The notes under the pieces: model-generated | Databases searched by the model: none | What the model was told of the DNA's origin: nothing | What the model saw: the letters and a program-made list of their open reading frames with translations, nothing else | Made by a program: the position numbers and the translations under genes | In this document: positions 21,117 through 60,101 of the stretch, in pieces | Numbering within the stretch: position 1 is the stretch's first letter | Layout: each line of letters starts with the position of its first letter | Assembly: GCA_964422025.1 (NCBI GenBank) | Contig: CAYQYZ010000002.1 | Location: 67,765-131,764 of the forward strand | Reading direction: 5' to 3' | DNA length: 64,000 bases | From: an uncultured Gammaproteobacteria bacterium | GTDB lineage: Bacteria > Patescibacteriota > Microgenomatia > UBA1406 > HO2-37-13b

Positions 21117-23861
21117 ATGCCAACAGAAATCATGTCTGATTATGCGCAAAATATTGAGGCTGGATCGCCAGCAAGCTCTGCATTCGCTGAAAAAGTACCC
21201 CTTGGAACTGAACAAATCTTCCATACTACCGCCACAATAGGTCAAGATCAATATACTGTAATTTTTGACCCGAGAAATATCACCCTCGAAGAAGAAGATG
21301 CTATTGCTTCCCTAGATAGACAAATTGAAGGTTTGAATAGAGTTATGGGTAGTCGCGGACGTACTGATTTTGCTGATAGAAGACAACTTAGTAGAGCTTT
21401 AGAACAAAGACTGGCAGTTCTTGGACAAATTACCAATAGAGAAACGCTGATTTTTACTGATCCCGTTGGAAATAACCCATATATAAACGGCGTACTAAAT
21501 CGCCCACTCGATGAGGTACCTGCGCCTGCATCAAAAAAAGACAATTCCTCGCACACTATTTTTCCTGCTGTCAATGCAATGGTTGCCGCATCGCTTCTCG
21601 GTCAACCGTTTATGCACGATGGAATCCAACCAAATACACACCAAGAAATAGTACAGCACGCACAATCCCAAACAGTCGCAGGTCTTGTAGGTAAATTTGA
21701 TGCAAGTCGAGCTGTTCCAGATAAAAACGGGAACTACACATATGATATTCAACAAGGCGATGAAGCAATATCAGTAACACTTACTCCTCTTGAAGTTGCA
21801 TTCTTAGATACAGTTCAAAAACGAATTCCACAAGGAGACGAATCTGCACCAGGGGCAACACCCAATAAGATATTTCTACCATCAGTAGGAAAAGGTATGA
21901 CCCGTCTACCGGTTGAACCAACCGATGGGCCTCCGCCAACAGCGACCCGCCGACCAACAATGGTAATTCCAACACCTGAAAGAACTTCTCCTACGCCTCC
22001 TGCAATAAAAACAGAAGAACCAACTCCCACTACAGCGCCAACATCAGAGCCTACAGCCACGCCAACTGAAGCGCCTACGGCAACAGAAGCAGGGCCAGTG
22101 ACGGAATTAGCACTCAACATAGGCGATGAAATCATCGTAGTTGACGATTCCTATGAATATGCTATGGTTGGTAAAAATGGAGATCAGGAATCTGGAGCGG
22201 CCGCAGTAGGATATGATTTTTCAACGATGACTAACCCAGTTCTTGACGGTGAATATGTTGTTGGTACGGTGATAAAAGATGGGAAACCCATGACCATACG
22301 CAAGTCCATACATCAAGTTGATCCATCAATACGAGGTCGTATCAAACAAGGCAATCCCGATGAAGATACTCGATTGAGGAGTAAAGCGAGTATTTGGGAA
22401 GGCTCCGATGAACCGGGTATCGATAAACCCGTGCGCATTACAGCGAACAATAATGGAAGCTTGGGTGTTTATGGTCGGACATTTTTTGGAAATTTTAATA
22501 CTGGCGCTCAAATTGAGTTGAGCGGAAGAGCTTCGGGGAATGCAAAGACTGGCGACATGGTTATTATGAGCTGGAACCAAGACACAAGAACAGCGGAGAT
22601 GTTAACGTTTCGATGCAGTACGCAAGGGACGCAGTGGACCGTATTAGCTTCAACACAAGCAAGTACTTCGTTTGCTGCTTTAATAGAATCTAGAAAAACT
22701 TCAGATGGTTCTACCAATGGCTTACAAACTGAAAACGAACTATATAGATTTGCCATGGGTCAAACGGACATTAAAGTAGAAACAAAAGATGGAAACCTAA
22801 ATATACTTGATAAGGATGGTAAAGTCATCCAAACAATCCCACTTACTAATGCAATGGAAAGTGGCCTAAACTTTGTAGATTTTGGACGAACTGGTTTCCC
22901 AAAAAGCCAAGCAGTCATTACTGTGAATAGGGCGCATGTTTCTTTTTCTCGCCCACTAGAGGGAACGCCTCAATTAAGTCCTGAAAGTCGATTACCTACT
23001 TTAGCCGATCTAGCCAAAGCAAATGGAATAACTATTATGGCGCAAGGTGATTCTGAATTTTTTTCTTCACAGCCTGGATTATTAAAATTATATGACAGAA
23101 CCGCACATCTTATAGATACAAATTCAGCATATCAAGACGGTGCGGACTTACAAAGATTTCTTTTAGATCAAAAGCGTACACCCGCGATTGTTCTTGGGGC
23201 AGGAATATCGGATCTTGATCTTGAAAAGATTGTAAAGGAGAATCCCGGATCTGTTTTTCAGTTCGTAGCCAAAGGCACAAGTAACGGCCCTGAGGGAACT
23301 GTCGTTAAACCAGATGGTTCATTAGTAGACAAGAGAAAATTGCAAAAAGTTCTAGATGCTGCAGCCGCTAATGGTTCTAAAGTTATGTTAATTACTCCTA
23401 CGCCTCTTGATAAAAAACTAGACAAAGCCACACAGACAGACCGAGCTACGTCACTTTCCCCCCAACTAAGACTTTTAGAAGATCTCAAAACTCTTAAAAA
23501 TCAGAGCGCTCTAAAGGTGCTATTTGCTGGTGATTCAAAATATATCCTTGATCCAAAGCTAGCACGCTCTGATCTGGTATCTGCTGTCCGATATGCGTTA
23601 GAAGTTGTACAAAATGCGGGTTTTGATGCAGGGCTGGCAAATATCAGTGGACCTGATAAAGAATATGTTTCTTTAATTGGTGAAATAGCCTCAGGTTTAA
23701 AAAATATAACTCTTGGATTCGGCACGTCACTCAATACAGAAAGCAAACCTGTTGGACTGTTTAATTATACAGGTGGCCCCGTTGAAGATTATCAAACAGT
23801 CAGCTATTCAGAAGGAGAAGATGCTCTGTATAATGCACTTCTAAATAATCTTCCCAAGTAA
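21117..23861 (+). CDS. Large hypothetical protein (914 aa) with a central Pro/Thr linker
   Basis: Long uninterrupted ORF. PPTATRRPT..EPTPTTAPTSEPTATPTEAPTATEA linker. The C-terminal part has a GDSEFF / ITPTP pattern faintly reminiscent of SGNH hydrolases (weak). Confidence 0.7.
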   Translation: MPTEIMSDYAQNIEAGSPASSAFAEKVPLGTEQIFHTTATIGQDQYTVIFDPRNITLEEEDAIASLDRQIEGLNRVMGSRGRTDFADRRQLSRALEQRLAVLGQITNRETLIFTDPVGNNPYINGVLNRPLDEVPAPASKKDNSSHTIFPAVNAMVAASLLGQPFMHDGIQPNTHQEIVQHAQSQTVAGLVGKFDASRAVPDKNGNYTYDIQQGDEAISVTLTPLEVAFLDTVQKRIPQGDESAPGATPNKIFLPSVGKGMTRLPVEPTDGPPPTATRRPTMVIPTPERTSPTPPAIKTEEPTPTTAPTSEPTATPTEAPTATEAGPVTELALNIGDEIIVVDDSYEYAMVGKNGDQESGAAAVGYDFSTMTNPVLDGEYVVGTVIKDGKPMTIRKSIHQVDPSIRGRIKQGNPDEDTRLRSKASIWEGSDEPGIDKPVRITANNNGSLGVYGRTFFGNFNTGAQIELSGRASGNAKTGDMVIMSWNQDTRTAEMLTFRCSTQGTQWTVLASTQASTSFAALIESRKTSDGSTNGLQTENELYRFAMGQTDIKVETKDGNLNILDKDGKVIQTIPLTNAMESGLNFVDFGRTGFPKSQAVITVNRAHVSFSRPLEGTPQLSPESRLPTLADLAKANGITIMAQGDSEFFSSQPGLLKLYDRTAHLIDTNSAYQDGADLQRFLLDQKRTPAIVLGAGISDLDLEKIVKENPGSVFQFVAKGTSNGPEGTVVKPDGSLVDKRKLQKVLDAAAANGSKVMLITPTPLDKKLDKATQTDRATSLSPQLRLLEDLKTLKNQSALKVLFAGDSKYILDPKLARSDLVSAVRYALEVVQNAGFDAGLANISGPDKEYVSLIGEIASGLKNITLGFGTSLNTESKPVGLFNYTGGPVEDYQTVSYSEGEDALYNALLNNLPK

Positions 23862-23922: not shown

Positions 23923-26154
23923 ATGAAAAAGATAATACTTGGCGGTGCATTATTACTATTTTTATTACCATTAGTATCTCCAGCCCAGGCTCTTTTTATT
24001 TGCGATGATCCTGCACATGTCCCGCCCAATAGATGTAATAATCCAATTTCAAATGTGAGCTGTGACAATCCAAGAAATTTTACAGGTTCATGTATCGGAA
24101 CAACAGGACAATACAATTCAGTCGCAAGTTGCGATGCTTTTGATCATGCAGACGTTGGATTCTACTACTTTAAACGGTATTATTACAGAATCAAGAAGGC
24201 AACTGACGGAACGTGTGGCTCTCCCAGTTGGGCATATTCACACACTTGGTCACAAACAACAAGTACAGACACATCAGTAAATCCACCTAATTGTCGATTG
24301 TATGCTACCAATGTTCCTGCCGGATGTGATGATGGGATCCAACCAAATGCACCAACAAATTTCCCACCTAGCCCTCCAGGCTCTTGTCCCAATCCATACA
24401 ATATTCCACCTATCCAATGTAACAACATTCCTTGTGCCTACAAAAATGCCTGCGGCTGTTCATGCACCTTCCCTCCCTGTGGTCCTGGGCAATGTTCCGG
24501 GGGGCCGCCGCCAACAGCAACGCCAAGCCCAACTCCCACTCCATTCTGCCAAGTATTTTGCCCCGGACAGAGCGGACTTGAAGGAGCAATGAACAACCAA
24601 GGTGGAGGAGGAGGAGTTTCAAATATAAATTTCCAACCAACGCCCATCCTACCAACCCAAGCAATAGGGTTTTTGAATTATTACGGATTTAATGGGTTTG
24701 CTTGTGGAACATTTGATGATGCAAAAACATATCCCAAAGCATGTCCAGCCGGAGGAAGTGGTCTGGGTAATACGACTGAATATTGGACATATCCTACCCC
24801 CACAACAAGCCCTTTGCGATACAACATGCTTTGTGGAAATCAGACACACATATATACGGCCATTGTTAATGCAGGAGCACGTACCGGTGCCTATGGGGTG
24901 GGTCAACTAGGAGGCCCCACGCCAACTACTGCTCCAACACCAACGATGGGGATATATCCAATTGGGTGTTTTATGGGAACTCCAACTCCAACTCCTGAGG
25001 GCGGAATTCAAACCGTTGCCGACCAAGATGCGGGATTCTTAAAGGAACAAGGAGGCGTAATTGGATCTGATGCAAATTCCTGCTCATGTTCAGTAGCCGT
25101 AGGGTGCCAAACAAGCTTGCAATCGCTTCCAAGTGCAACCGGCGTATCATGTGACGCTAATTGCGACTTTACCGTTTCCCCAGAAACTCCCGAATTTAAT
25201 GATGCGGTAACCTATACAGCAACCGGCGCGGGTGTCGATGGAAGTTCAACATTTAGTTTTGACGATAATACTACCCCGGTTGCTGCAAATGCCGGACCAG
25301 TTACTCGAACATTTGCAAACTCTGGCGTATATCGAGTTGCGCTTACCTGTAATAGTGGTGCCCAAACCTGTACTCGAACGGTAAATAATTACTGCGGACC
25401 ACTTTCATGGTACAAAATCAAAAACGCATCCTTCCATAAAAATAATTCGGTTAATAACTCAATTCCTGCCAGTATTACCGCGTTTGACGGCGACGACACC
25501 ACCCAAGCACTTACGAGTATTGGAAGTGCGGGACTTGTTACAACCACCGGATCAATTACCACCGGTGCCGGGAATCTTTCTACACCAAACTGGAGAAGCA
25601 CACTGTACACTCCAAATACAACATACACTCCAACGGCGTATGCTGATTATGTAGTAGCCCGAAAGACATATAGTACGATCAGTGACGCGAACAGCAACGG
25701 CGTAATAGACTCCGGAGAACTCACTGCAAACACCACAAATTACATCGTTGGAGATTACACAATCGATAGCAATAGCGTACAAAGCAAGGCTCCAGTAGTA
25801 ATAGTCGTTCGGGGCAATCTGACAATCAATTCTAGCAGTAATGAATTCAACCCGCCCGATAAAGCAATGGTATTTATTGTAACGGGAACATTAAAAATTC
25901 ACTCGCATCATGATCAATTAAATGGAATTTTCATAGCAACCGGGGTTGATTTGGCATACGATGTTTCAAGCACCACGACTCCTCTTAAAATTGTTGGAAA
26001 CTTAATTTCGCATAATACAATTAATTTAATGAAGCGCGTGCGAACAAATGGCGCACAACCATCGTTGTTTGTTGTGCAAGAATACAAACATTATTTGAAT
26101 ACAATTAATATGATGGGAATTAGTAAATATACACAGACCGAATTGAGGCCGTAG
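23923..26154 (+). CDS. Secreted Cys-rich giant protein with a PKD-like domain and a beta-helix-like C-terminal region (candidate pilus-associated adhesin)
   Basis: Signal peptide MKKIILGGALLLFLLPLVSPAQA. The segment VSCDANCDFTVSPE..VTYTATG..GVYRVALTC is PKD-like. Lies directly upstream of the PilX-like gene. Confidence 0.7.
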   Translation: MKKIILGGALLLFLLPLVSPAQALFICDDPAHVPPNRCNNPISNVSCDNPRNFTGSCIGTTGQYNSVASCDAFDHADVGFYYFKRYYYRIKKATDGTCGSPSWAYSHTWSQTTSTDTSVNPPNCRLYATNVPAGCDDGIQPNAPTNFPPSPPGSCPNPYNIPPIQCNNIPCAYKNACGCSCTFPPCGPGQCSGGPPPTATPSPTPTPFCQVFCPGQSGLEGAMNNQGGGGGVSNINFQPTPILPTQAIGFLNYYGFNGFACGTFDDAKTYPKACPAGGSGLGNTTEYWTYPTPTTSPLRYNMLCGNQTHIYTAIVNAGARTGAYGVGQLGGPTPTTAPTPTMGIYPIGCFMGTPTPTPEGGIQTVADQDAGFLKEQGGVIGSDANSCSCSVAVGCQTSLQSLPSATGVSCDANCDFTVSPETPEFNDAVTYTATGAGVDGSSTFSFDDNTTPVAANAGPVTRTFANSGVYRVALTCNSGAQTCTRTVNNYCGPLSWYKIKNASFHKNNSVNNSIPASITAFDGDDTTQALTSIGSAGLVTTTGSITTGAGNLSTPNWRSTLYTPNTTYTPTAYADYVVARKTYSTISDANSNGVIDSGELTANTTNYIVGDYTIDSNSVQSKAPVVIVVRGNLTINSSSNEFNPPDKAMVFIVTGTLKIHSHHDQLNGIFIATGVDLAYDVSSTTTPLKIVGNLISHNTINLMKRVRTNGAQPSLFVVQEYKHYLNTINMMGISKYTQTELRP

Positions 26155-26986: not shown

Positions 26987-28135
26987 ATGATTAAACTTCT
27001 ACTGGCTATTGCAATAAGCGCGTACGCTCTTTTAACGCTCCCTTCGAGTATTAATGCCCAAACATCGCCCTGTGAAAGTAAGCGGGTTGCCGGGGACTAC
27101 AACTGTGATGATAGGATCAATTTACTTGATTTCGATAGCTTCCGAATAGATTTTGTAGCCAATAAAGTGTCGCTAATATATTTTGACTATTGGAGAAAGG
27201 CCATGTTCGGCTCCCCTCCAAATAGCTCTACTCCTACTCCCGCCAATCAAGGCAAGCAACAACTTATTACCCAAACAATTGCAGCGGTAAGCAAGCAAAA
27301 AATAACTGAAACAGTTACGGCAATTGCAGATGACGATGATGTTCCCGGAGTAGATGCTACCCAAACGCGCTATAGCAATTCTTCGGGGAACCAGGTAGAA
27401 CGCGCGTATATAACAGCACAATTGCAAGGCATGGGATATCAAGTAACCACTCAAACTTTTTCACTGAGCGGAGTAAATTCTGCCAATATTATTGCGCGTC
27501 TTGCAGGAAAAGACACGTCGAAATATTATATTGTCACGGCACATTTGGACTCCACCGCCGCGCTGTCGGGTACCAACGACCCCGCACCGGGGGCTGACGA
27601 TAATGGAAGTGGCGTGGCAGCAGTTTTGGAAACTGCGCGAGTATTAAAATCGATGGGTTCTCAGCTTACTAGTTCAGTCGAATTCGTACTTTTTTCCGGG
27701 GAAGAACAGGGATTGTATGGAAGTGACTATTACACTTCACGAATTACCGATCCAAGCGCCGTGCAAGGTGTTTTTAACATGGATATGGTTGGCTGGAATC
27801 AACCGGGGCGAGGCGAGTGTGTACAGTTTGGATATCTGGCACGCAATGGAGGCAATATTCTGTCAGAAGCTGCTCAAAATATCGATCGCGCACACAGTAT
27901 TCAACTGAAGGCAGATTCTGTACTTACAAATATTATGGCTTCCGACCATGGATCGTTTGTCCGAAAAGGAATGAAAGCAATCCTAATTTCCGAATGCGTG
28001 CTTATGGAAGGCGGCCGAGGAACGGTGCAGCCAAATTATCATAGTACCCGCGACAAGCCCGATACGTTAAACTATGCTCAGATAGAAAAAACAGCCAAAA
28101 CCGTTGCGGCAACCATTATTGATTTAGCATATTAA
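26987..28135 (+). CDS. M28-family zinc aminopeptidase, secreted, with an N-terminal dockerin/EF-hand-like loop
   Basis: GADDNGSGVAAVLE and FSGEEQGLYGS metal-ligand blocks. Signal peptide. DYNCDDRINLLD loop. Confidence 0.85.
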   Translation: MIKLLLAIAISAYALLTLPSSINAQTSPCESKRVAGDYNCDDRINLLDFDSFRIDFVANKVSLIYFDYWRKAMFGSPPNSSTPTPANQGKQQLITQTIAAVSKQKITETVTAIADDDDVPGVDATQTRYSNSSGNQVERAYITAQLQGMGYQVTTQTFSLSGVNSANIIARLAGKDTSKYYIVTAHLDSTAALSGTNDPAPGADDNGSGVAAVLETARVLKSMGSQLTSSVEFVLFSGEEQGLYGSDYYTSRITDPSAVQGVFNMDMVGWNQPGRGECVQFGYLARNGGNILSEAAQNIDRAHSIQLKADSVLTNIMASDHGSFVRKGMKAILISECVLMEGGRGTVQPNYHSTRDKPDTLNYAQIEKTAKTVAATIIDLAY

Positions 28136-28136
28136 T

Positions 28137-28658
28137 ATGAAAAAAATACTACTTTTTATAATTGCCCTCATTATTGCAGGCGGCTTATTGTGGAATTTTC
28201 AGTACCGGTCAAGCGCAACGAATTCCGTAATTTCATTAGTAAAAATTACGTATAACAACGATGTAGAATTTGAAAAAGCATTTGACGGAAGCACCAGCGT
28301 TCATTATATTTTCGAACAGCCCACAAGCAAGAACTCTTTTATGTTGTCGCTAATGACCCCCGACCAGCATACCCGGCTTACCGCGCAAGGATTTAAAACG
28401 GAGGTAATCGAGGAGAACCCCGATATGTCTAAATACATGGTCGCGTATTCCCCAAATGCTGCACCCGTACAAAGCTTTGCTGAAATAGGGCAAGCCGATG
28501 CACTTGACGCGCGATTCACACTCGTAAAAGCAGGTTCAGCTGCACAGTTTGCAGATCATGATGCATTAATGGGTGATAACTCGGCTATTTTTACATATGA
28601 CATTGCCAAGTCATTGGCAAAACCCAAATACAAAACCGTACGGGCTACATCTCCGTGA
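28137..28658 (+). CDS. Hypothetical membrane-anchored/secreted protein
   Basis: 173 aa. N-terminal hydrophobic segment. Starts 1 nt after the M28 stop. Confidence 0.6.
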   Translation: MKKILLFIIALIIAGGLLWNFQYRSSATNSVISLVKITYNNDVEFEKAFDGSTSVHYIFEQPTSKNSFMLSLMTPDQHTRLTAQGFKTEVIEENPDMSKYMVAYSPNAAPVQSFAEIGQADALDARFTLVKAGSAAQFADHDALMGDNSAIFTYDIAKSLAKPKYKTVRATSP

Positions 28659-45321: not shown

Positions 45322-45576
45322 TTGCGGAGCCGGGAATCGGACCCGGTCTAGGAGATTATGCACTTATTCTTCAATTACTTGAAGGGTTGGACTATGTCTT
45401 CATCCCGACGTATCGGGAGCCGGCGTGTAGTCTCTACGGGGTCATTCCGACGCGTGTCGGAAGACTTCCCACGGCATTGCCCCATAAGGGTTTCACCGTT
45501 ATAGCCAGTTATCTAGGTAAATTACTCTACCAAGAGCCCATTTTGAGCCTCCTGTGCGGCCTTACACTACCCCGCT
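45322..45576 (-). tRNA. tRNA with anticodon CAU (Met or Ile2) interrupted by a group I intron
   Basis: 5' exon 45576-45546: AGCGGGG UA GUGU AAGGCC GCAC A GGAGG CU. 3' exon 45360-45322: CAUAA UCUCC UAGA CCGGG UCCGAUU CCCGG CUCCGCA A. The joined exons give a cloverleaf with loop CUCAUAA. No CCA is encoded. Confidence 0.7.
45361..45545 (-). ncRNA. Group I intron (~185 nt, no ORF) in the tRNA anticodon loop after U33
   Basis: The 5' exon ends in U and the intron ends in G. GUAGAGACUACACG and GAAGACAUAGUCC match the conserved P7/P3 core (R and S) elements of tRNA group I introns. Compare the Azoarcus GUAGAGACUAGACGG. Confidence 0.65.
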
Positions 45577-53594: not shown

Positions 53595-53619
53595 ATAATT
53601 TCCCTGCTCGGGGTGTGAT

Positions 53620-53707
53620 CGAAGGTTGGTATTCGGACTTGTTCCTGTGGAAGGAACTTACCGTTGCGGCACAGCTTAGGATTTTCACCTAATTCCCACA
53701 ACCTTCG
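53620..53707 (-). promoter_or_regulatory. Cobalamin riboswitch aptamer (compact, class II / variant-like)
   Basis: The minus strand reads CGAAGGUUG-UGGGAAUUAGGUGAAAAUCCUAAGCUGUGCCGCAACGGUAAG..CACAGGAACAAGUCCGAAUACCAACCUUCG. It has a 9-bp P1, the GGUGAAAAUCC and CCGCAACGGUAAG core, and a B12-box-like AAGUCCGAAUACC. Confidence 0.75.
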
Positions 53708-53716
53708 TTTTAGTAA

Positions 53717-54223
53717 CTATGTTGAAATCTCTTCAACCGATTCATTATACTGTCGGGCCAACATAAAAAACAAGTCTGAAAGACGGTTGATATATTGGAG
53801 AATTACTTCGTCGTCGATGCTCAGGGCAACGATGGATCTTTCGGCTCTGCGCGAGATAGCACGAAGCACATGAAACCACGAAGAAACTTCGGTTCCTTGG
53901 GGCAAAATAAAGCGCGTTAATTTTGGAACACTGTCTTGGATTGTGTCGATACGCTCCTCGAGAGCCTGGACGTCGGGGAGAGTGACCATTTCTCCTTTTC
54001 GGGCTCCAACCAAATACCCCATGATTTTGTACAGGTTTGTTTGGATATCGGTTAAGAGCTGTTTATCCTGGTCACTATTAAGCTTTGAAATGACTAGACC
54101 GATAAAACTCTCAAGTTCATCAATCGTGCCACAGGCATTAATGGTAGGATCCGATTTGGAAACGCGCGTTTTACCAAATAAGCTCGTTTCGCCTTTGTCT
54201 CCTGTTTTAGTATAGATTGACAT
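53717..54223 (-). CDS. pduO: ATP:cob(I)alamin adenosyltransferase, PduO type
   Basis: 168 aa. IYTKTGDKGETSLFGKTRVSKSDPTINACGTIDEL is a hallmark N-terminus. Confidence 0.9.
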   Translation of the reverse strand: MSIYTKTGDKGETSLFGKTRVSKSDPTINACGTIDELESFIGLVISKLNSDQDKQLLTDIQTNLYKIMGYLVGARKGEMVTLPDVQALEERIDTIQDSVPKLTRFILPQGTEVSSWFHVLRAISRRAERSIVALSIDDEVILQYINRLSDLFFMLARQYNESVEEIST

Positions 54224-54224
54224 A

Positions 54225-56663
54225 TCAGCACGCGCTGAATCCGCAACTGTAGCACTTCTTACACCCTTCTTCGTGTACTAGGGATGCTGCTCCACAGTCA
54301 GGGCAAATATCAAAATGTGTGGAACGCGACACGGTTGATGATACTGCATGAGATGCGGTAGTAGATGCAGCTCGAGCCATTGCGTCGGCAATTGTTTCTT
54401 GCTGGGCTTTCGCCTCTACGTCTTGTTCAAGAGCTTGAAGCTCGGGCGCATTAGCTCCATTCCCATTGAGCGCTGGTTGTTCCACAAGTTGACTACTATT
54501 AAGCTGATAATGCATGGAAAGCACTTTAGCAACTGCATCGGGCAGGCTTCGAACACGTTCTTTTCCAAATCCGACTGCGCTGCTACCGCCAATATTGGAC
54601 AGTACTCTAATAATATTGCTAATTTTGTCTTCGGGCGACAAATTGGTTGAAAGGCGCAGGACCAAAGAAATCATTCGGCCCAAGCCTTCGGCCATAGCCG
54701 CAACATCGGTTCCTGCTTTTCCAACATTAATAAACACTTCCATAGGAGTTTGCCCGCCATTAGTGTTTACGGTTACATATGCTTTACCAACAGGCGTGTT
54801 GACTTTGTATGTAGCTCCGTGAACAACCATTGGACGAGGTTTAACGGCATATTGGAAAACTGGTTTTTCAACCACTTCCTCTTTTTTCTCCTCGATACGT
54901 TCAAGCACTCCTTGGCGAGAGCCTTCTCGCATGTAAGCAATACCTTTAAGACCGTGATCGTATGCAAGCGTGTACAAACGCTTCACGTCTTCAACAGTAT
55001 GTGTCGTGGGTGCATTCACCGTTTTGGAAATAGAAGCGTCAACATACTTTTGAATGGCCGCCTGCACCATAACGTGGTCTTCAGGCGAAAGATCGTTGGC
55101 TGATACGAACCACTCAGGGCGCTTAAGCTCTCCGCTCGTTATTTCCGCTTCGTGTTTTGAATACCATTCATTGTATAAATGGTGACGAATAACGTCTTTA
55201 CCAAGACGGCTGTACCGATTAAATTCAAATTCGTATACCGGCTCTATTCCCGATGTTGCATCGGCCAAAAGTGCCGTGGTCCCGGTTGGGGCTTGCATAA
55301 GCAACACAGAGTTTCTGATTCCGTTGTCGCGGATGTCATTTACTAAGTCGGTTGGTAATTGTTTCACGAATCCTCCGGCCGGATATAATTTTTTGTCAAA
55401 CATTTTGAAGCTTCCTTTTTCTTTGGCAATTTCCATAGAAGCCCTGTAAGCCTCATCGCGAATTGTTCGATAAATTTGTTCAATTACCGGAAGCGATTCT
55501 GGGGAACCGTAGCGCAAATGCATTTTAATTAACGCGTCTCCCAGTCCCATGGTTCCGAGCCCAATGCGGCGTTCGCCTTCAAGTTGGGTTTTTCGAATTC
55601 CCTCAAAAACGTATGGATCCATGTCGACTACATTATCTTGGAATCGGACCGCCGTATGAACAACTTCTTTTAATTGCTCGTAGTCAAATTCGCCCGGGGA
55701 GTCAATATCATTTCCCTTGACTAGAGCCGAAAGATTGATCGAACCCAAGTTACATACACCCCATTCTGGCAACCCTTCTTCGCCACAGGGATTTACGCAA
55801 ATAATACGATTCCAGTAATAATTGTTATGGAGTTTGTTGTAACGTTCCATGAAAACCACTCCAGGTTCTGCACTGCGCCATGCAGCATCAGCAATAAGAT
55901 CCCAGATCTTTTGGGCTTTTACCACTTTGTGAACAATGACTTTTTTGCCCAATTTTTTCCAGGCCTCTAAGTCCCCGTTCCATTTTTCGTCATATTCTGG
56001 GTCTGTTTTATCGGGAAAAACCAATGGCCAATCGGCATCGGCTTTGACTGCTTCCATGAAACTATCAGAAATGCAAAGCGAAAGGTTGGCGCCATTAATA
56101 CGTGTTAAGTCTTGTTTAACGGTGATGAATTCCTCAATGTCAGGATGCCAGTCCCATAACATAAGCATCAGAGCTCCGCGACGGCTTCCTCCTTGTTGAA
56201 TAATATCTTTGGTAGCAACGGAGAAAAGCTCGGCCCAGTTACACGGACCCGACGAAAATCCATTCACTTTTTTAACCCGTTCTCCACGGGGACGAAGTGA
56301 GGATAAATTAATCCCCACTCCTCCGCCATGGGCCATGATTTCAATCATTTGCTTTAGAGTGTCAATAATGCCTCCGCGGGCGTCTTTGGGGCTAGGGATA
56401 ACGAAACAGTTGTAATAGGTCACAGAATATCCGGTACCTGCTCCGGCAAGAATTCTCCCACCCGGAACATACTTAAAGTCTTCCATGATGCTGTAGAATT
56501 TTTCTTCCCAATTTTTTCTCTTTTTACCAACCTCTACCTGCGCTACTGCACCAGCAACCCGGCGCCACATTTCTTCAGGAGTTTTTTCTATAGGAGATCC
56601 TTCTTTATTTTTAACTGAGTACCGATCTAAAAAAACCTTGTTTCGAATTCCGGTTAAGTTCAT
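54225..56663 (-). CDS. nrdJ: Adenosylcobalamin-dependent ribonucleotide reductase (class II)
   Basis: 812 aa. VCNLGSINLS and NPCGE motifs, and the C-terminal Cys tail CPDCG..CKKCYSCGFSAC. Confidence 0.92.
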   Translation of the reverse strand: MNLTGIRNKVFLDRYSVKNKEGSPIEKTPEEMWRRVAGAVAQVEVGKKRKNWEEKFYSIMEDFKYVPGGRILAGAGTGYSVTYYNCFVIPSPKDARGGIIDTLKQMIEIMAHGGGVGINLSSLRPRGERVKKVNGFSSGPCNWAELFSVATKDIIQQGGSRRGALMLMLWDWHPDIEEFITVKQDLTRINGANLSLCISDSFMEAVKADADWPLVFPDKTDPEYDEKWNGDLEAWKKLGKKVIVHKVVKAQKIWDLIADAAWRSAEPGVVFMERYNKLHNNYYWNRIICVNPCGEEGLPEWGVCNLGSINLSALVKGNDIDSPGEFDYEQLKEVVHTAVRFQDNVVDMDPYVFEGIRKTQLEGERRIGLGTMGLGDALIKMHLRYGSPESLPVIEQIYRTIRDEAYRASMEIAKEKGSFKMFDKKLYPAGGFVKQLPTDLVNDIRDNGIRNSVLLMQAPTGTTALLADATSGIEPVYEFEFNRYSRLGKDVIRHHLYNEWYSKHEAEITSGELKRPEWFVSANDLSPEDHVMVQAAIQKYVDASISKTVNAPTTHTVEDVKRLYTLAYDHGLKGIAYMREGSRQGVLERIEEKKEEVVEKPVFQYAVKPRPMVVHGATYKVNTPVGKAYVTVNTNGGQTPMEVFINVGKAGTDVAAMAEGLGRMISLVLRLSTNLSPEDKISNIIRVLSNIGGSSAVGFGKERVRSLPDAVAKVLSMHYQLNSSQLVEQPALNGNGANAPELQALEQDVEAKAQQETIADAMARAASTTASHAVSSTVSRSTHFDICPDCGAASLVHEEGCKKCYSCGFSAC

Positions 56664-57171: not shown

Positions 57172-57200
57172 ACTTTATTACACTAATTAGCCCCTGTCAA
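57172..57200 (-). promoter_or_regulatory. Promoter of the nrdR-nrdJ-pduO operon: TTGACA-17-TAAAGT
   Basis: The minus strand reads TTGACAggggctaattagtgtaaTAAAGT. Confidence 0.45.
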
Positions 57201-57354
57201 CCGATCGAATTGTCATGAAACTATATCAGGTGATTTTGGGTGTGCCTGGAAGCAAAGATAATAGAATTTTTGAGTAATTTCCCTGGAAAAATTTGTACAG
57301 TTTGATCGAATTTCTTCAATTGACAATGCCGGTACAATTGGAGAAAATGAAAGT

Positions 57355-57846
57355 ATGTATTCAAATCCACAAACCATCTTTTCATGGGAAGCACCACTGC
57401 GGGCGTATAAAAAAGAATCAAAAGGGGTGTTGCGATTTTATTTAGCGCTAGCCCTATTACTCTCGCTCATCGTGTTTTTCTGGGGGGAGAAGATATTGGT
57501 GTTGCCGATCTGGGCAATGTTGTTTTTATTCTATACGCTTACCATCACAAAGCCACCAGCAGTGAAAAACAGCATTACAAAATTTGGGCTACAGGCAGAT
57601 AGTAAGACGTTTCGGTTTGATCACCTGTCGCACTTTTATATAACGAAACAATTTGATTACTATATGTTGGTGGTGGTCTCACATCCCCCATTGTCATATC
57701 ATATATATTTCGTGGTGCCTGATGAAGAAGTTCGAGATCGAGTCATTGAGATTTTATCGGATTATTTAGTGTACCAAGAACATCCTCGGCGAACATTTAC
57801 TGATAAGATGATTGGGGCTTTATCGAGCCTCATGCCCAACGAGTGA
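57355..57846 (+). CDS. Hypothetical membrane protein
   Basis: 163 aa with two TM helices near the N-terminus. No motif recognised. Confidence 0.55.
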   Translation: MYSNPQTIFSWEAPLRAYKKESKGVLRFYLALALLLSLIVFFWGEKILVLPIWAMLFLFYTLTITKPPAVKNSITKFGLQADSKTFRFDHLSHFYITKQFDYYMLVVVSHPPLSYHIYFVVPDEEVRDRVIEILSDYLVYQEHPRRTFTDKMIGALSSLMPNE

Positions 57847-58458
57847 GAGCTTGTTAAGGAGCAATTCTGCAGGAACTTCTTTGACGCCAAACATTCTTCC
57901 CCATCGAAGTACACCTTCATCAGCTGAAACCAGGTAACCATCGAGTTCTTTAGCGAGAACAATAAGGTCAAGGTCAGCAACGCTGTCAAGGAAATTGAAA
58001 CGGGTCGCTTGACGATAACGATCTCGGAGCTTGGTGATAACATCGCCCAGTCCTTTTTGATATTCAATTTTATTTTCAAATGTTTTACTTGACATGAGCT
58101 GAGCTCCAGCCTCAACTTGTTCTTGGGCTACTGTTAGGCCCCGATATGAACGTGTACGGATTTCGTCTACCATGGTGTAAAAAATAGTCGCTGGGAACTC
58201 GACTTTGGAAACATCGGGAGATTTGATGGTTATATGTGTAAGGAGAGTCTTAATGTCTTCTTCGCTTGCAGTATTACTGGTAAATTCACTTGTTTCACGA
58301 GCTACGCTTGCTGGCATAAAAAATTCAACTTTTTTTTCGGCTTTTAGTTTCTTGGCAAGCTCGATGAAGTTGGTAATAACATCATGCGCATTGCTGCCAA
58401 ATCCGGTTTTTACTTCAAGGTTGAAGAAAAAGTTAGTATCGATAATGTAGGAATCCAT
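57820..58458 (-). CDS. PIN-domain protein resembling HARP (protein-only, RNA-free RNase P; UPF0278 family)
   Basis: 212 aa. IIDTNFFFN, EFFMPASVARE and RYRQATR..LDSVADLDLIVLAKELDGYLVSADEGV follow the pattern I recall for Aquifex Aq_880 homologs. Confidence 0.5.
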   Translation of the reverse strand: MDSYIIDTNFFFNLEVKTGFGSNAHDVITNFIELAKKLKAEKKVEFFMPASVARETSEFTSNTASEEDIKTLLTHITIKSPDVSKVEFPATIFYTMVDEIRTRSYRGLTVAQEQVEAGAQLMSSKTFENKIEYQKGLGDVITKLRDRYRQATRFNFLDSVADLDLIVLAKELDGYLVSADEGVLRWGRMFGVKEVPAELLLNKLSLVGHEAR

Positions 58459-58481
58459 GAGAGTATTATACAGTAGTTTTG

Positions 58482-58525
58482 ATAACCTAAGAGGTTAGTA
58501 GTGCCTGTTCAACCTCTTAGGTTGG
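58482..58525. repeat. Family D repeat
   Basis: ataacctaagaggttagtagtgcctgttcaacctcttaggttgg. Confidence 0.85.
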
Positions 58526-58526
58526 A

Positions 58527-59447
58527 TTAAAAGAGATAGATGAGACCGATCACAATCGCTCCCCACAGAGCAATAGCGGCAATAAGTGGTTTGTCTTTCG
58601 TAATAATAGTTTCAGGCGATTCTCCTTGTTCTTTCTCGTAAAGAAGTTGTGCATATCGTGCAATTCCATATACTACGATTGGAACCGTTACCATAATCCA
58701 TTTACGGGCTTCGAACGAGGGAAATAGCGAGCCAAAATAAACAGTAATTGGAGTTGAAATAACAGGAGGCTTCTCGAGGAAGGTATAGAGCGAATATGAG
58801 GTAATGGTGAGCGTTGCAAAGGTAGTGGTAAGAAAGTTGATTAAATGCTCTTTATACCGATATAAAGATGAGCGCGTTTGGGTTCCATGAGCCACAAGCT
58901 CAGCGTGACGTTTAACGGTGGCGATAAACAATGATATGAAAAATACGGTTAAAAGAAGCCATATTTGAATATGGTAGCCGGTAATAATGGACCCTGCAAA
59001 TGCGCGCAACATAAATGAGAATGAAATGGTGAAAATATCGAGCACCGGGTGCATTTTGAAATAGAGCGAATAAAAAAAGTGTAGTAGTAGAAAAGCAAAG
59101 GCAACAAAGAAAAATGGAATTGAGAAAAAAAGCGATGCGATTAAAACAACCAAAGATGCGGCAAAAATTACAAATGTAGCGTCAGGAACGGTTAATTCCC
59201 CCGAAGCAATAGGACGGAACTTTTTGGATGGGTGCTTTCGATCAAACGGGTAATCAATAATATCGTTAAGAATGTATGAGACAGAAGATAGTAGGCAAAA
59301 AAGCCCAAACCCAATAAGTGATTTTATAAACAGATCTCCGTTAAATAATTGCCCCGAGAAAATAAGCGAAGTAAAAATAATGAGGTTTTTGAGCCATTGA
59401 TTGGGTCGCGCCGCGCGATATACCGCTTTCAATTTCACAAGATTCAT
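58527..59447 (-). CDS. UbiA-family prenyltransferase (decaprenyl-phosphate phosphoribosyltransferase-like)
   Basis: 306 aa, polytopic. NDIIDYPFDRKHPSKKFRPIASG motif. Confidence 0.85.
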   Translation of the reverse strand: MNLVKLKAVYRAARPNQWLKNLIIFTSLIFSGQLFNGDLFIKSLIGFGLFCLLSSVSYILNDIIDYPFDRKHPSKKFRPIASGELTVPDATFVIFAASLVVLIASLFFSIPFFFVAFAFLLLHFFYSLYFKMHPVLDIFTISFSFMLRAFAGSIITGYHIQIWLLLTVFFISLFIATVKRHAELVAHGTQTRSSLYRYKEHLINFLTTTFATLTITSYSLYTFLEKPPVISTPITVYFGSLFPSFEARKWIMVTVPIVVYGIARYAQLLYEKEQGESPETIITKDKPLIAAIALWGAIVIGLIYLF

Positions 59448-59466
59448 ACAGAAATTATATCACAGA

Positions 59467-59522
59467 CAACCTCTTAGGTTAGTAGTGCGTGTTCTCCGCC
59501 GACTGGCGGACTCTTAGGTTGG
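59467..59522. repeat. Family D repeat with an embedded TCCGCCGACTGGCGGA hairpin
   Basis: caacctcttaggttagtagtgcgtgttctccgccgactggcggactcttaggttgg. Confidence 0.85.
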
Positions 59523-59525
59523 TAA

Positions 59526-60101
59526 TTAGAAAGGCAACGTCATACTAATATCATTCTTTGCTTTGCTTTGCATAACGCTTTTCCAATTGACCCGAATAGT
59601 TGCTTTTCCCGCGTGATTAAGATAGTAGATTTCCCCGTGTTCAACTCCATAGTCAAATAATAATCGAGTAATATTCACATCCCCCTCACAGTATTGACGT
59701 AGCTCCTCAATCTTTCCTTCTTTATACAATTCAATCGCATGCAGCCCGTGTCCACTTTTCTTTAAATCAAGCGTTGCCCCAACAACATCATTAAGCGCAA
59801 GTCGATGACCTAATTTTTCTTTAATATCGTCCAAAATATCAAATGTCTTGAATTGCTCAACATTCCCTGGGTAATACGCCTGCAAAACGGGTAAATCAAA
59901 ACTTACAATATTAAATCCAATGATAAATGAAGCTTGCTCGAGCTTTTTATATAATTCCCCCAGCTCACTTTCTAAATAACTATGCATCGTAGCCGTAGAG
60001 TAATCGTACAGGGAAGCAATCGAGATTCCTAGTTTTTTATGGTCAGAAAAATCGCGAAACGTATATTTTGTTTCTAAATCAAGAACGACGGGGTGATTCA
60101 T
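59526..60101 (-). CDS. RNase H-fold 3'-5' exonuclease-like protein (YprB/PolB-exo-like)
   Basis: 191 aa. VLDLET (DxE), GFNIVSFD and YCEGD (YxxxD) motifs. Confidence 0.6.
   Translation of the reverse strand: MNHPVVLDLETKYTFRDFSDHKKLGISIASLYDYSTATMHSYLESELGELYKKLEQASFIIGFNIVSFDLPVLQAYYPGNVEQFKTFDILDDIKEKLGHRLALNDVVGATLDLKKSGHGLHAIELYKEGKIEELRQYCEGDVNITRLLFDYGVEHGEIYYLNHAGKATIRVNWKSVMQSKAKNDISMTLPF

What the first reader, a model, noticed from the sequence alone, without database searches (positions are those of the whole stretch)
57820..58458. Candidate protein-only RNase P (HARP) homolog
The 212-aa PIN-like protein (IIDTNFFFN.., EFFMPASV.., ..LDSVADLDLIVLAKELDGYLVSADEGV) follows the sequence pattern I recall for the UPF0278 family. 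That family includes Aquifex aeolicus Aq_880, the minimal RNA-free RNase P. I found no RNase P RNA hallmark (GAGGAAAGUCC etc.) in this window. If the genome lacks rnpB and rnpA, this would be the tRNA 5'-maturation enzyme. That includes maturation of the intron-containing tRNA 12 kb away.
Basis: partly seen in the sequence, partly recalled or inferred. Interest (0 to 1): 0.55.

Follow-up and report, generated by a model that had tools for sequence, protein, structure and literature searches.

The report
Protein-only RNase P in Roizmanbacteria
This gene encodes a small protein-only RNase P (HARP) in a tiny wastewater bacterium of the Candidate Phyla Radiation whose whole order appears to have swapped the usual RNA-based tRNA-trimming enzyme for this protein.

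Summary
[quoted passage not shown] It scores 162.5 bits on Pfam PIN_5 against a cut-off of 27. It matches seven solved "RNA-free ribonuclease P" sequences at E 5e-28 to 2e-23. A pLDDT-92 model superposes on tRNA-bound HARP structures (TM up to 0.91).

The genome (1.04 Mb, 98.4% complete) sits among MAGs labelled Candidatus Roizmanbacteria. I found no rnpB with three Rfam models, a class-specific nhmmer profile or a two-block descriptor. I found no rnpA, and rpmH abuts yidC exactly where sister lineages carry rpmH-rnpA-yidD-yidC.

In 150 genomes of the order, HARP was found in 146, rnpB in 0 and rnpA in 3 (two shown to carry a duplicate rpmH, so probably bin contamination). In 41 genomes of the class, rnpB was found in 37 and rnpA in 36. 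HARP occurred only in the three genomes that lack both.

tRNA genes separated by 2-29 nt still need an endonuclease.

It is a new member of a known family. The lineage is unusual for HARP: mesophilic, order-wide and without the Rnl3 ligase partner. Enzyme activity is untested.

The parts
57820..58458 (-). HARP gene (212 aa, protein-only RNase P; PIN_5 domain over residues 4-204)
   Evidence: ORF. PF08745 162.5 bits vs cut-off 27. TIGR03875 167.1 bits vs 95.3. Seven PDB 'RNA-free ribonuclease P' sequences at E 5e-28 to 2.2e-23. It is the only PF08745 place in the genome.
58438..58440 (-). Codon of Asp7, first predicted catalytic aspartate
   Evidence: Invariant in 81 of 81 clade HARPs. Aligned to Asp in the three printed PDB alignments. 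Aq880 D7 is described as indispensable in eLife 2021 (passages). Codon checked.
57919..57987 (-). Stretch holding Asp158, Asp162 (also Asp164, Asp173) and Asp180, the remaining active-site acidic residues
   Evidence: D158 and D162 are invariant, D164 and D180 are conserved in at least 90% of 81 sequences. D158, D162, D173 and D180 align to Asp in all three printed PDB HARP alignments. Codons checked.
58000..58191 (-). Spike-helix (SH) hairpin, residues 90-153, with invariant R145, Y148, R149, T152, R153. Predicted dimerisation and tRNA-elbow binding element, about 12 residues longer at its tip than in solved HARPs
   Evidence: AF2 model has helices 90-124 and 130-153, pLDDT 92. Invariant basic residues. 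11+1 gap columns against 7e8j in this region. SH-SH contacts in the predicted tetramer. The SH role is taken from eLife 2021 passages.
57832..57870 (-). C-terminal helix (residues 197-209), predicted inter-dimer contact
   Evidence: Helix 197-209 in the model. Residues 184-203 touch residues 50-84 of another copy in the predicted tetramer. C-terminal truncations of Aq880 abolish oligomerisation and activity (eLife 2021 passages).
57355..57846 (+). Convergent neighbour: 163-aa protein with a hydrophobic N-terminal part (by eye) and no Pfam family. Its 3' end overlaps the HARP 3' end by 27 nt. It marks the conserved insertion site of HARP
   Evidence: No Pfam hit. Adjacent and convergent to HARP in 80 of 80 related loci. 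Present in 36 of 41 class genomes, including RNP-bearing ones.
   Evidence: ARAGORN with introns. Rfam RF00028 at 45368-45555, 70.2 bits.

Best explanation
The ORF encodes a functional HARP, a PIN_5 metallonuclease with an inserted spike-helix hairpin. It is the only RNase P of this Candidatus Roizmanbacteria-type (Microgenomates, CPR) bacterium. By analogy with solved HARPs, monomers pair head-to-head through the spike helices. Dimers then stack through the alpha4-alpha5 loop and the C-terminal helix. The basic face of one spike (R145, R149, R153) holds the tRNA elbow. The Asp7/Asp158/Asp162/Asp180 metal site of a neighbouring dimer cuts off the 5' leader. The ribonucleoprotein enzyme (rnpB RNA plus RnpA) was lost in the ancestor of the order after HARP was inserted next to a conserved membrane-protein gene. 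Shown here: family membership, fold, conserved catalytic and RNA-binding residues, lack of detectable rnpB and rnpA with positive controls, the rpmH-yidC scar, and complementary phyletic distribution. Inferred: catalytic activity on pre-tRNA, oligomeric state in vivo, and the order of gain and loss.
For: Family. PF08745 E=1.2e-47. TIGR03875 167 bits. Seven solved HARP sequences at E 5e-28 to 2.2e-23, with the next PDB hit at E 0.07. The AF2 model (pLDDT 92.2, pTM 0.85) has all 34 Foldseek hits at E<=1e-3 in HARP entries, for example 8kd9 Aquifex HARP with pre-tRNA at TMt 0.91 and rmsd 2.1 A. VapC-type PINs reach only E~1e-2 and TMq 0.31-0.46.

Residues. D7, D158, D162, R145, Y148, R149 and R153 are invariant and D180 is at least 90% conserved in 81 clade sequences. 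The Asp positions align to Asp in three solved HARPs.

Oligomer. A 4-copy prediction scores 0.51 against a best control of 0.00. The runs agree in at least 93% of contacts and partner pLDDT is at least 82. The same mark was reached by 20 of 30 solved homo-pairs and 1 of 23 single chains in the tool's calibration. It reproduces the SH-SH and C-terminal-helix interfaces described for Hhal2243. This pass may come from likeness to solved HARPs.

No RNP enzyme in the genome.
- RF00010, RF00011 and RF00373 give 0 matches (13, 23 and 28 candidates scored).
- RF00010 gives 0 matches even at E<=10.
- An nhmmer profile of 20 class rnpB finds 3 held-out controls at E 1e-41 to 2.5e-59, but the best own-genome hit is E=8.6.
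- A two-block descriptor hits 23 of 23 class rnpB, 0 places in the own genome and 0 in a shuffled genome.
- PF00825 gives 0 matches. tblastn with three class RnpA proteins gives a best E of 0.12.
- The rpmH stop overlaps the yidC start at C7 24337, whereas class relatives have rpmH-rnpA-yidD-yidC.

Phyletic pattern.
- Order sample of 150 genomes: HARP 146 of 150 (68 of 68 genera), rnpB 0 of 150, rnpA over cut-off 3 of 150.
- Class sample of 41: rnpB 37 of 41, rnpA 36 of 41, and HARP over cut-off only in the 3 genomes (G000, G025, G352) that lack both.
- Phylum sample of 301: HARP over cut-off in 2.

Need for the activity. There are 48 ARAGORN tRNA calls, with four same-strand pairs spaced 2, 7, 13 and 29 nt.

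Vertical inheritance. The same convergent neighbour is present in 80 of 80 loci.
Against: There is no biochemical or in vivo evidence for this protein.

Four recombinant bacterial HARPs formed oligomers but did not cleave pre-tRNA, and HARP turnover is 10-100 fold below that of RNP enzymes (Seshadri and Gopalan 2025, main text read).

The protein is only 28-33% identical to solved HARPs, with about 12 extra residues at the spike tip.

17 of the 48 tRNA genes encode CCA. The Hydrogenobacter HARP cleaves CCA-bearing substrates about 10-fold more slowly.

CPR RNase P RNAs can be very diverged. Lui et al. 2021 missed 10 of 35 at standard thresholds (passages).

The genome is a draft of 18 contigs at 98.4% completeness. 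The genome search scores only the candidates of a loose first look.

rnpA was found in 3 of 150 order genomes. Only two of these were checked for a duplicate rpmH.

Many tRNA genes have a -10-like box 7-12 nt upstream, so leaders may be very short.
Confidence: 0.85

Rival explanations
1. HARP is an accessory or back-up nuclease. The real RNase P is a ribonucleoprotein whose RNA is too diverged, or lies in an unassembled gap, to be detected.
For: Lui et al. 2021 report diverged CPR RNase P RNAs, 10 of 35 missed at Rfam thresholds (passages). In the class sample only 11 of 41 genomes reach the RF00010 gathering score. Archaea and most HARP-bearing bacteria carry both enzymes. The genome is a draft.
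Against: The same pipeline finds rnpB at E<=1e-3 in 37 of 41 class genomes, down to 38 bits. It finds rnpB in 0 of 150 order genomes, several of them in 1-4 contigs. The unfiltered nhmmer profile and the core-motif descriptor, both with positive controls, find nothing. The protein subunit is gone as well, and the rpmH-yidC junction has no space for it. The second HARP lineage, G352, has rpmH-yidD-yidC without rnpA.
Confidence: 0.06
2. The protein is a HARP-family nuclease that does not process pre-tRNA here (some other RNA substrate). tRNA 5' ends arise from near-leaderless transcription plus another nuclease.
For: Four bacterial HARPs were inactive on pre-tRNA in vitro, and non-tRNA roles have been proposed. 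-10-like hexamers end 7-12 nt upstream of tRNA +1 in 20 of 45 own tRNA genes, which predicts very short leaders. Only 3 of 45 own tRNAs have another tRNA within 100 nt upstream.
Against: The short-leader promoter layout is equally present in RNP-bearing class relatives (17 of 40 and 12 of 37), so it does not replace RNase P there. Same-strand tRNA pairs spaced 2-29 nt need an endonuclease. The inactive HARPs came from bacteria that kept a functional RNP (abstract of PMC9945441, listing). Here HARP presence is exactly complementary to loss of rnpB and rnpA. The proposed ligase-linked role cannot apply, because Rnl3 is over cut-off in 0 of 41 relatives.
Confidence: 0.07
3. It is a VapC-like PIN toxin of a toxin-antitoxin module.
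For: HARP belongs to the PIN superfamily, and a toxin-antitoxin origin has been suggested for the family (passages; main text).
Against: Generic PIN models score below their cut-offs. VapC structures match only at E~1e-2. No small antitoxin-like ORF was seen beside it among the ORFs of at least 50 aa: upstream is a 306-aa UbiA-family gene and downstream a convergent 163-aa gene. The gene is single-copy, in a fixed chromosomal context in 80 of 80 loci, and present in 146 of 150 genomes of the order. That is housekeeping behaviour, not mobile behaviour.
Confidence: 0.01

Closest known systems
Aq_880 / HARP of Aquifex aeolicus and Hydrogenobacter thermophilus (PDB 7f3e, 8kd9, 8kda, 8ssf)
   Same: Same Pfam family. 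Same fold (TMt 0.88-0.91). Same acidic and basic key residues. Same genomic situation: no rnpB or rnpA, and rnpA excised from the rpmH operon (the Aquifex rpmH-yidD-yidC order is quoted in the 2024 review). Predicted homo-oligomer through the same interfaces.
   Different: Only 29-32% identity. About 17-20 residues longer, mostly at the spike tip. The host is a mesophilic, roughly 1-Mb CPR bacterium found in wastewater, activated-sludge and freshwater runs, not a hyperthermophile. No Rnl3 ligase was found in the lineage. Activity is untested.
HARPs of bacteria that also keep the RNP enzyme (Halorhodospira halophila Hhal2243, 7og5; Thermodesulfatator indicus and others)
   Same: Same family and architecture.
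   Different: Those genomes keep functional rnpA and rnpB, and several of their HARPs are inactive in vitro (abstract of PMC9945441). Here rnpB and rnpA were not detected.
HARP of 'Planctomycetes bacterium GWF2_40_8' (7e8k, 7e8o) and of Thermococcus celer (7e8j)
   Same: These are the best sequence matches among solved structures (E 2.1e-26 and 5e-28). 7e8o is a complex with tRNA (title).
   Different: About 30-33% identity. Representatives of the classical HARP groups score 160-216 bits to these chains, whereas the window protein scores about 100 bits. The Roizmanbacteria clade is therefore a separate, divergent branch.
Eukaryotic PRORP (protein-only RNase P)
   Same: Same reaction, and a superposable PIN-type aspartate site according to eLife 2021 (passages).
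   Different: A different PIN subgroup with PPR and zinc-finger domains. No PF16953 match in the genome, but that search had no positive control.
Nanoarchaeum equitans (life without RNase P, leaderless tRNAs)
   Same: A small symbiont-type genome without RNase P RNA. Promoter boxes lie close to tRNA 5' ends.
   Different: Here a dedicated protein enzyme is present, and tandem tRNA genes need cleavage. The promoter spacing predicts leaders of a few nucleotides rather than none (my inference). The Nanoarchaeum facts come from the 2024 review and the Lui 2021 passages.

Membership tests
HARP / PIN_5 (PF08745; TIGR03875) | Full-length match to the family profile above the curated cut-off | tested here: met
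   PF08745 162.5 bits vs 27, profile positions 2-200 of 205. TIGR03875 167.1 bits vs 95.3. The NF00334x equivalog models are all below their cut-offs, so it is not an equivalog of those named subgroups.
HARP / PIN_5 | Four active-site aspartates (Aq880 D7, D138, D142, D161 as printed in eLife 2021) | tested here: met
   D7, D158, D162 and D180 align to Asp in the three printed solved-HARP alignments. They are invariant or at least 90% conserved in 81 clade members. The mapping to Aq880 numbering is inferred from spacing, not from a printed Aq880 alignment.
HARP / PIN_5 | Spike-helix hairpin inserted in the PIN core, carrying conserved Arg/Lys needed for activity (Aq880 R125, R129) | tested here: met
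   Helices 90-124 and 130-153 in the pLDDT-92 model. R145, R149 and R153 invariant. Fold match to HARP structures. The hairpin is about 12 residues longer than in 7e8j.
HARP / PIN_5 | Homo-oligomerisation through the SH domains and the C-terminal helix | tested here: inconclusive
   The predicted 4-copy complex passes (0.51 vs best control 0.00, at least 93% contact agreement, pLDDT at least 82) with the interfaces described in eLife 2021. The pass may reflect memory of solved HARPs and is not a measurement.
HARP / PIN_5 | Site-specific 5'-leader cleavage of pre-tRNA without RNA subunit | not testable with these tools
   Needs recombinant protein and a pre-tRNA assay, or complementation.
HARP-only bacteria (Aquificaceae type) | Genome lacks both rnpB and rnpA | tested here: met
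   Own genome. rpmH-yidC junction. Order sample: rnpB 0 of 150 and rnpA 3 of 150. Limits: draft genome, and the genome search scores only prefiltered candidates.
'RNA ligase partner protein' (the name of TIGR03875; HARP-Rnl3 pair of Seshadri and Gopalan 2025) | Co-occurrence or co-localisation with Rnl3 ligase (TIGR01209) | tested here: not met
   TIGR01209 is over cut-off in 0 of 41 genomes of the order, including the own genome. One sub-cut-off hit of 17.5 bits. No ligase among the neighbours.
VapC toxin (PIN, PF01850) | Match to the PIN/VapC profile and an adjacent antitoxin gene | tested here: not met
   PF01850 scores 15.2 bits against a cut-off of 23.6. No small partner ORF was seen among ORFs of at least 50 aa. 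VapC structures match only at E~1e-2.

The most novel reading that the evidence does not exclude
An entire order of mesophilic, ultra-small CPR bacteria (Roizmanbacteria type; 68 of 68 sampled genera), plus a second lineage of the same class, has replaced the RNase P ribozyme by HARP. That would make it the largest HARP-only radiation and the only one that is non-extremophile and free of the Rnl3 ligase. Its close sister lineages still use the ribozyme. It would count against the proposals that HARP is tied to harsh habitats or to an RNA-ligase partner, and it would offer a natural before-and-after comparison for the switch from ribozyme to protein.
Probability: 0.5. Interest if true: 0.72.

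Novelty: new member of a known kind. Interest (0 to 1): 0.6.

Why it matters
RNase P is the textbook case of an essential ribozyme that evolution has occasionally replaced by a protein. Among bacteria, the papers I could read name HARP-only genera only in Aquificae and Nitrospirae, plus unnamed "unclassified" genomes.

A 2025 survey linked HARP to extreme habitats and to an Rnl3 ligase. This locus belongs to a large, mesophilic, host-dependent-type lineage in which the swap looks complete and no ligase was found. Sister orders one step away still have rnpB and rnpA.

That makes several questions directly testable by comparative genomics and simple enzymology:
- What allows the swap (short leaders, scattered tRNA genes, few encoded CCA ends)?
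- When did HARP arrive?
- Is HARP sufficient on its own?

It also matters in practice. Pipelines that require RNase P RNA as a completeness check, as in Lui et al. 2021, would wrongly flag these genomes. The NCBIfam name "RNA ligase partner protein" is also misleading here.

Tried and rejected
Origin of the gene. I built a quick ML tree of 113 HARPs: window, 19 named loci, G352, and the 92 of the 150 listed library representatives that are 165-260 aa long (the other 58 were left out). It places the Roizmanbacteria sequences with 18 unnamed representatives (SH-aLRT 93), and G352 plus P0016 as sister (89). The representatives carry no names. Four of them (P0039, P0033, P0018, P0040), looked up against the PDB, were not close to any one solved HARP. 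The donor lineage is therefore unresolved and I make no HGT-source claim.

PRORP. PF16953 gave nothing in the own genome, but nothing rang in the controls either, so this is uninformative.

Expression. Three metatranscriptome runs each gave one short contig (152-172 nt) on the 2.2-kb stretch. One of them (X20) lies at 58312-58481 over the HARP start. The tool warns that DNA can be present in such libraries. The rest of the stretch had no cover and run X24 laid nothing. I give this no weight either way.

Promoter scan. The scan of 57200-59700 found 3 sigma-70-like sites against 6.9 expected, which is not informative.

Short 5' leaders as a HARP-specific adaptation. Rejected, because the -10 box spacing is the same in two RNP-bearing class genomes.

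The 163-aa neighbour as a HARP-specific partner. Rejected, because it is class-wide (36 of 41) and present in RNP-bearing genomes.

P4 hallmark with up to 1 mismatch. It gave 10 places genome-wide and none exact. By my own arithmetic this is about chance level.

rnpA hits in G034 and G036. I considered these as true retention. Both genomes hold two rpmH copies, and the rnpA-linked one is the extra copy, so contamination is more likely. G468 was not checked.

Literature. Six full-text searches found no paper on HARP in CPR, Patescibacteria, Microgenomates or Roizmanbacteria. A seventh supplied the HARP papers cited here. The library lacks most subscription journals. Nickel et al. 2017 is not held, so what I say of it is taken from later papers. 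Supplements are closed. Table S1 of Seshadri and Gopalan 2025 and the figshare genome list and Fig. 1B of Daniels et al. 2019 may already list such genomes among their "unclassified bacteria".

Full report
THE OBSERVATION.
The ORF listing returns an ATG-started ORF of 212 aa at 57820..58458 on the minus strand. It overlaps by 27 nt the 3' end of a convergent 163-aa ORF (57355..57846, +). It lies 68 nt downstream of a 306-aa UbiA-family gene on the same strand.

WHAT THE PROTEIN IS.
- Pfam assigns it to PF08745 (PIN_5, "PINc domain ribonuclease") at E=1.2e-47 and 162.5 bits against a cut-off of 27, covering profile positions 2-200 of 205. Generic PIN (15.2 bits) and PIN_12 (13.4 bits) stay below their cut-offs.
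- NCBIfam gives TIGR03875 at 167.1 bits against 95.3.
- phmmer against all PDB chains finds seven distinct sequences, all named "RNA-free ribonuclease P", at E 5e-28 to 2.2e-23. The next hit is at E 0.07.
- An AlphaFold2 model built on 81 clade sequences (alignment A2) has mean pLDDT 92.2 and pTM 0.85. It shows a PIN core with a long helical hairpin (helices 90-124 and 130-153) and a C-terminal helix 197-209.
- In Foldseek against the PDB, all 34 matches at E<=1e-3 are HARP entries. They include the pre-tRNA complexes of Aquifex aeolicus (8kd9; TMt 0.91, rmsd 2.1 A) and Hydrogenobacter thermophilus (8kda; E 4.3e-16). VapC-type PIN proteins appear only at E~1e-2 with TMq 0.31-0.46.
- The eLife 2021 HARP structure paper (passages read) names D7, D138, D142 and D161 of Aq880 as indispensable and R125/R129 in the spike-helix domain as essential. 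In the window protein D7, D158, D162 and D180 align to Asp in each of the three printed alignments with solved HARPs.
- In 81 clade sequences D7, D158, D162, R145, Y148, R149, T152 and R153 are invariant. D164, D180 and E181 are at least 90% conserved.
- Relative to 7e8j the protein has 12 extra residues at the tip of the hairpin.
- A four-copy complex prediction passed. The score was 0.51 against a best control of 0.00, with contact agreement of at least 93% and partner pLDDT of at least 82. The mark was reached by 20 of 30 solved homo-pairs and 1 of 23 single chains in the tool's calibration, which used two copies. The contacts are spike-to-spike (residues 104-118 and 140-152), and residues 50-84 against 184-203. 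These are the two interfaces described for the Halorhodospira dodecamer (passages). Because HARP assemblies are solved, this shows likeness, not binding.

THE ORGANISM.
The window is contig C2 67765-131764 of a 1,035,828-bp assembly of 18 contigs, 98.37% complete with 0.4% contamination. It has a tmRNA and 48 ARAGORN tRNA calls. A scan of GTDB species genomes with an alignment of ten HARPs from the order found 179 stretches that encode a relative. The best 80 lie on MAGs titled Candidatus Roizmanbacteria, Microgenomates or Patescibacteria group. Many others carry what look like placeholder titles such as "uncultured Gammaproteobacteria". The closest is 92% identical and titled Candidatus Roizmanbacteria. 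Near-identical DNA is held by 15 public runs (half of the sampled words or more) labelled wastewater, activated sludge, freshwater or anaerobic digester. These are ordinary, non-extreme habitats.

IS THE RIBONUCLEOPROTEIN ENZYME REALLY MISSING?

1. RNA subunit.
- The genome search with RF00010, RF00011 and RF00373 found nothing in the own genome (13, 23 and 28 candidates scored). RF00010 found nothing even at E<=10.
- CPR RNase P RNAs are known to be diverged: Lui et al. 2021 missed 10 of 35 at standard thresholds (passages read). I therefore added two checks of my own.
- First, an nhmmer profile built from 20 rnpB genes of the same class (fetched) and run without filters recovers three held-out class rnpB genes at E 1e-41 to 2.5e-59. 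Its best hit in the own genome has E=8.6.
- Second, a descriptor made of the two most conserved blocks of the class alignment (the two P4 strands and their flanks) hits 23 of 23 class rnpB at up to 5 and 4 mismatches. It hits 0 places in the own genome and 0 in a shuffled genome. At looser settings the own genome (13 pairs) does not exceed the shuffle (19 pairs).

2. Protein subunit.
- PF00825 has no match. tblastn with three class RnpA proteins gives a best E of 0.12.
- Class relatives have the canonical rpmH-rnpA-yidD-yidC operon. In the own genome rpmH (C7 24188-24337) ends on the start codon of yidC (24337-25170), and yidD sits alone on contig C9. This is a deletion scar, not an assembly gap. 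It resembles the rpmH-yidD-yidC arrangement quoted for Aquifex in the 2024 review (passage).

PHYLETIC PATTERN.
- First sample: own genome plus 40 relatives. HARP was over cut-off in 38 of 41, rnpA in 2 of 41 and rnpB in 0 of 41.
- Larger sample: 150 genomes of the order, at least 80% complete. HARP was found in 146 of 150 (68 of 68 genera), rnpB in 0 of 150, and rnpA over cut-off in 3 of 150. A fourth, sub-cut-off rnpA hit has five stop codons.
- Of the four HARP-less genomes (G002, G033, G038, G458; 87-99% complete, 30-250 contigs), the three tested also lack the gene that always flanks HARP. The locus is therefore probably just unassembled in them.
- Two of the three rnpA-positive genomes (G034, G036) contain two rpmH genes. 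One is linked to rnpA and the other is like the rpmH of a clean relative. This points to contaminating contigs. G468 was not examined.
- In 41 genomes sampled across the class, rnpB is found in 37 and rnpA in 36. HARP is over cut-off in exactly three, G000, G025 and G352, all of which lack both. One further genome (G367, 87% complete) lacks all three.
- G352 lies outside the order. Its HARP (197 aa) branches beside the Roizmanbacteria clade, and its operon reads rpmH-yidD-yidC without rnpA.
- In 301 genomes sampled across the phylum, HARP is over cut-off in two, both of this order.
- Kin are not independent, so I read this as one or two evolutionary events, not 146.

IS AN RNase P ACTIVITY STILL NEEDED?
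Four pairs of same-strand tRNA genes are separated by 2, 7, 13 and 29 nt. One example is tRNA-Phe, ending in CCA, followed 2 nt later by tRNA-Gly. The downstream 5' ends must therefore be made by an endonuclease. Many tRNA genes carry a -10-like hexamer ending 7-12 nt upstream of position +1: 20 of 45 genes, against a background of about 0.3 per position per 48 sites. With usual promoter geometry this predicts leaders of a few nucleotides (my inference). This layout is not special to the HARP clade. It is found in 17 of 40 and 12 of 37 tRNA genes of two RNP-bearing class genomes and in 9 of 33 of another HARP genome.

CONTEXT.
- The neighbours are housekeeping genes: ribonucleotide reductase, NrdR, a UbiA-family prenyltransferase, an exonuclease-like protein and YqeY. 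There is no ligase and no antitoxin-like gene.
- The 163-aa convergent neighbour is adjacent in 80 of 80 related loci. Other neighbours vary: reductase in 37 of 80, UbiA in 12 of 80. This fits one ancestral insertion followed by vertical descent.
- The neighbour itself is class-wide (36 of 41). In two RNP-bearing relatives it is followed 13 nt later by a tRNA gene.
- The Rnl3 ligase (TIGR01209) was over cut-off in 0 of 41 genomes of the order. Seshadri and Gopalan 2025 found it in 89% of HARP-positive genomes and adjacent in 80% of the bacterial ones (main text read).

COMPARISON WITH WHAT IS KNOWN.
- HARP was discovered in Aquifex. I could not read Nickel et al. 2017, which is not held, and rely on later papers.
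- Daniels et al. 2019 (passages) report HARP in a few bacterial phyla, mostly together with RnpA. [quoted passage not shown]
- The 2024 review lists five phyla beyond Aquificae "and a few unclassified bacteria" (passage).
- The 2025 survey counts 178 bacterial instances in five named orders and ties HARP to high salinity, alkalinity or temperature.
- None of the text I read names CPR, Patescibacteria, Microgenomates or Roizmanbacteria. Six full-text searches for such a link found nothing relevant.
- The unseen figure, figshare list and supplements may include such genomes, so I do not claim priority.
- The gene is thus a new member of a known family. What seems under-described is the scale (an order with at least 68 genera), the mesophilic habitat, the missing ligase, and the existence of ribozyme-using sister lineages.

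VERDICT.
The best explanation is that HARP is the sole tRNA 5'-maturation enzyme of this bacterium (confidence 0.85). The main rivals are an undetected, extremely diverged rnpB (0.06) and a HARP that does not act on tRNAs (0.07). A VapC-like toxin is effectively excluded (0.01). Catalytic activity, the oligomeric state in the cell and the source of the gene remain untested. Interest is 0.6.

Noticed in passing
window 57355-57846 (+); loci L020-L099: A 163-aa protein with no Pfam family and a hydrophobic N-terminal part (by eye) is convergent with and directly adjacent to HARP in 80 of 80 related loci. It is conserved across the class (36 of 41). In the RNP-bearing relatives G043 and G357 a tRNA gene starts 13 nt after it. 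HARP may therefore have been inserted at a former tRNA-flanking site.
   Followed up: partly
own genome, upstream of tRNA genes (e.g. C1 86601, C1 100507, C2 134601): -10-like hexamers (often a perfect TATAAT) end 7-12 nt before tRNA position +1 in 20 of 45 tRNA genes, far above background. The same holds in RNP-bearing class genomes (17 of 40 and 12 of 37), so very short pre-tRNA leaders look like a class-wide trait.
   Followed up: yes
G043, G357 versus G026, G000 (loci L121-L210, genome): tRNA genes with another same-strand tRNA within 100 nt upstream: 7 of 40 and 14 of 37 in two RNP-bearing genomes, against 2 of 33 and 3 of 45 in two HARP genomes. With only two genomes per group this is suggestive only.
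   Followed up: partly
window 58459-58530 (-): Just upstream of the HARP start there is a 13-nt-arm inverted repeat, then a perfect TATAAT that ends 6 nt before the ATG (sequence printed). No Shine-Dalgarno-like stretch is obvious, so the mRNA may be leaderless.
   Followed up: no
window 45323-45575 (-); genome C6 55639-55724: tRNA-Leu(CAA) carries a 185-nt group I intron (RF00028, 70.2 bits). A second, intron-less tRNA-Leu(CAA) lies on contig C6.
   Followed up: partly
window 53607-53721 (-): A cobalamin riboswitch (RF00174, 43 bits vs 31.5) lies downstream of the ribonucleotide reductase gene (54225-56663, -). It presumably controls the next minus-strand gene.
   Followed up: no
window 23188-23281 (+): ARAGORN calls a 94-nt 'tRNA-Phe(GAA)' with an odd 5' end. 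Rfam tRNA does not reach gathering score there, and a canonical tRNA-Phe exists on contig C3. It is probably a false call or a tRNA-like element.
   Followed up: no
G034:C7 (L011/L217), G036:C46 (L012/L219), G468:C86: These are the only rnpA genes over cut-off in the order samples. G034 and G036 each hold a second rpmH of the clade's own type elsewhere. They are most simply contaminating contigs in the bins. G468 was not checked.
   Followed up: partly
own genome C9 ~27983-28213 (-): yidD has left the rpmH operon and stands alone on another contig. The other HARP lineage, G352, keeps rpmH-yidD-yidC.
   Followed up: no
own genome contigs C10-C12, C16, C17: Five contigs of 1.1-2.6 kb have 55-75% G+C against about 40% for the rest. 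They are likely foreign to the bin. They were included in the nhmmer and motif searches for rnpB and held nothing.
   Followed up: no
class rnpB loci L014-L016, L100-L119: In the class sample only 11 of 41 genomes reach the RF00010 gathering score, although 37 of 41 match at E<=1e-3. This fits published reports of diverged CPR RNase P RNAs.
   Followed up: partly
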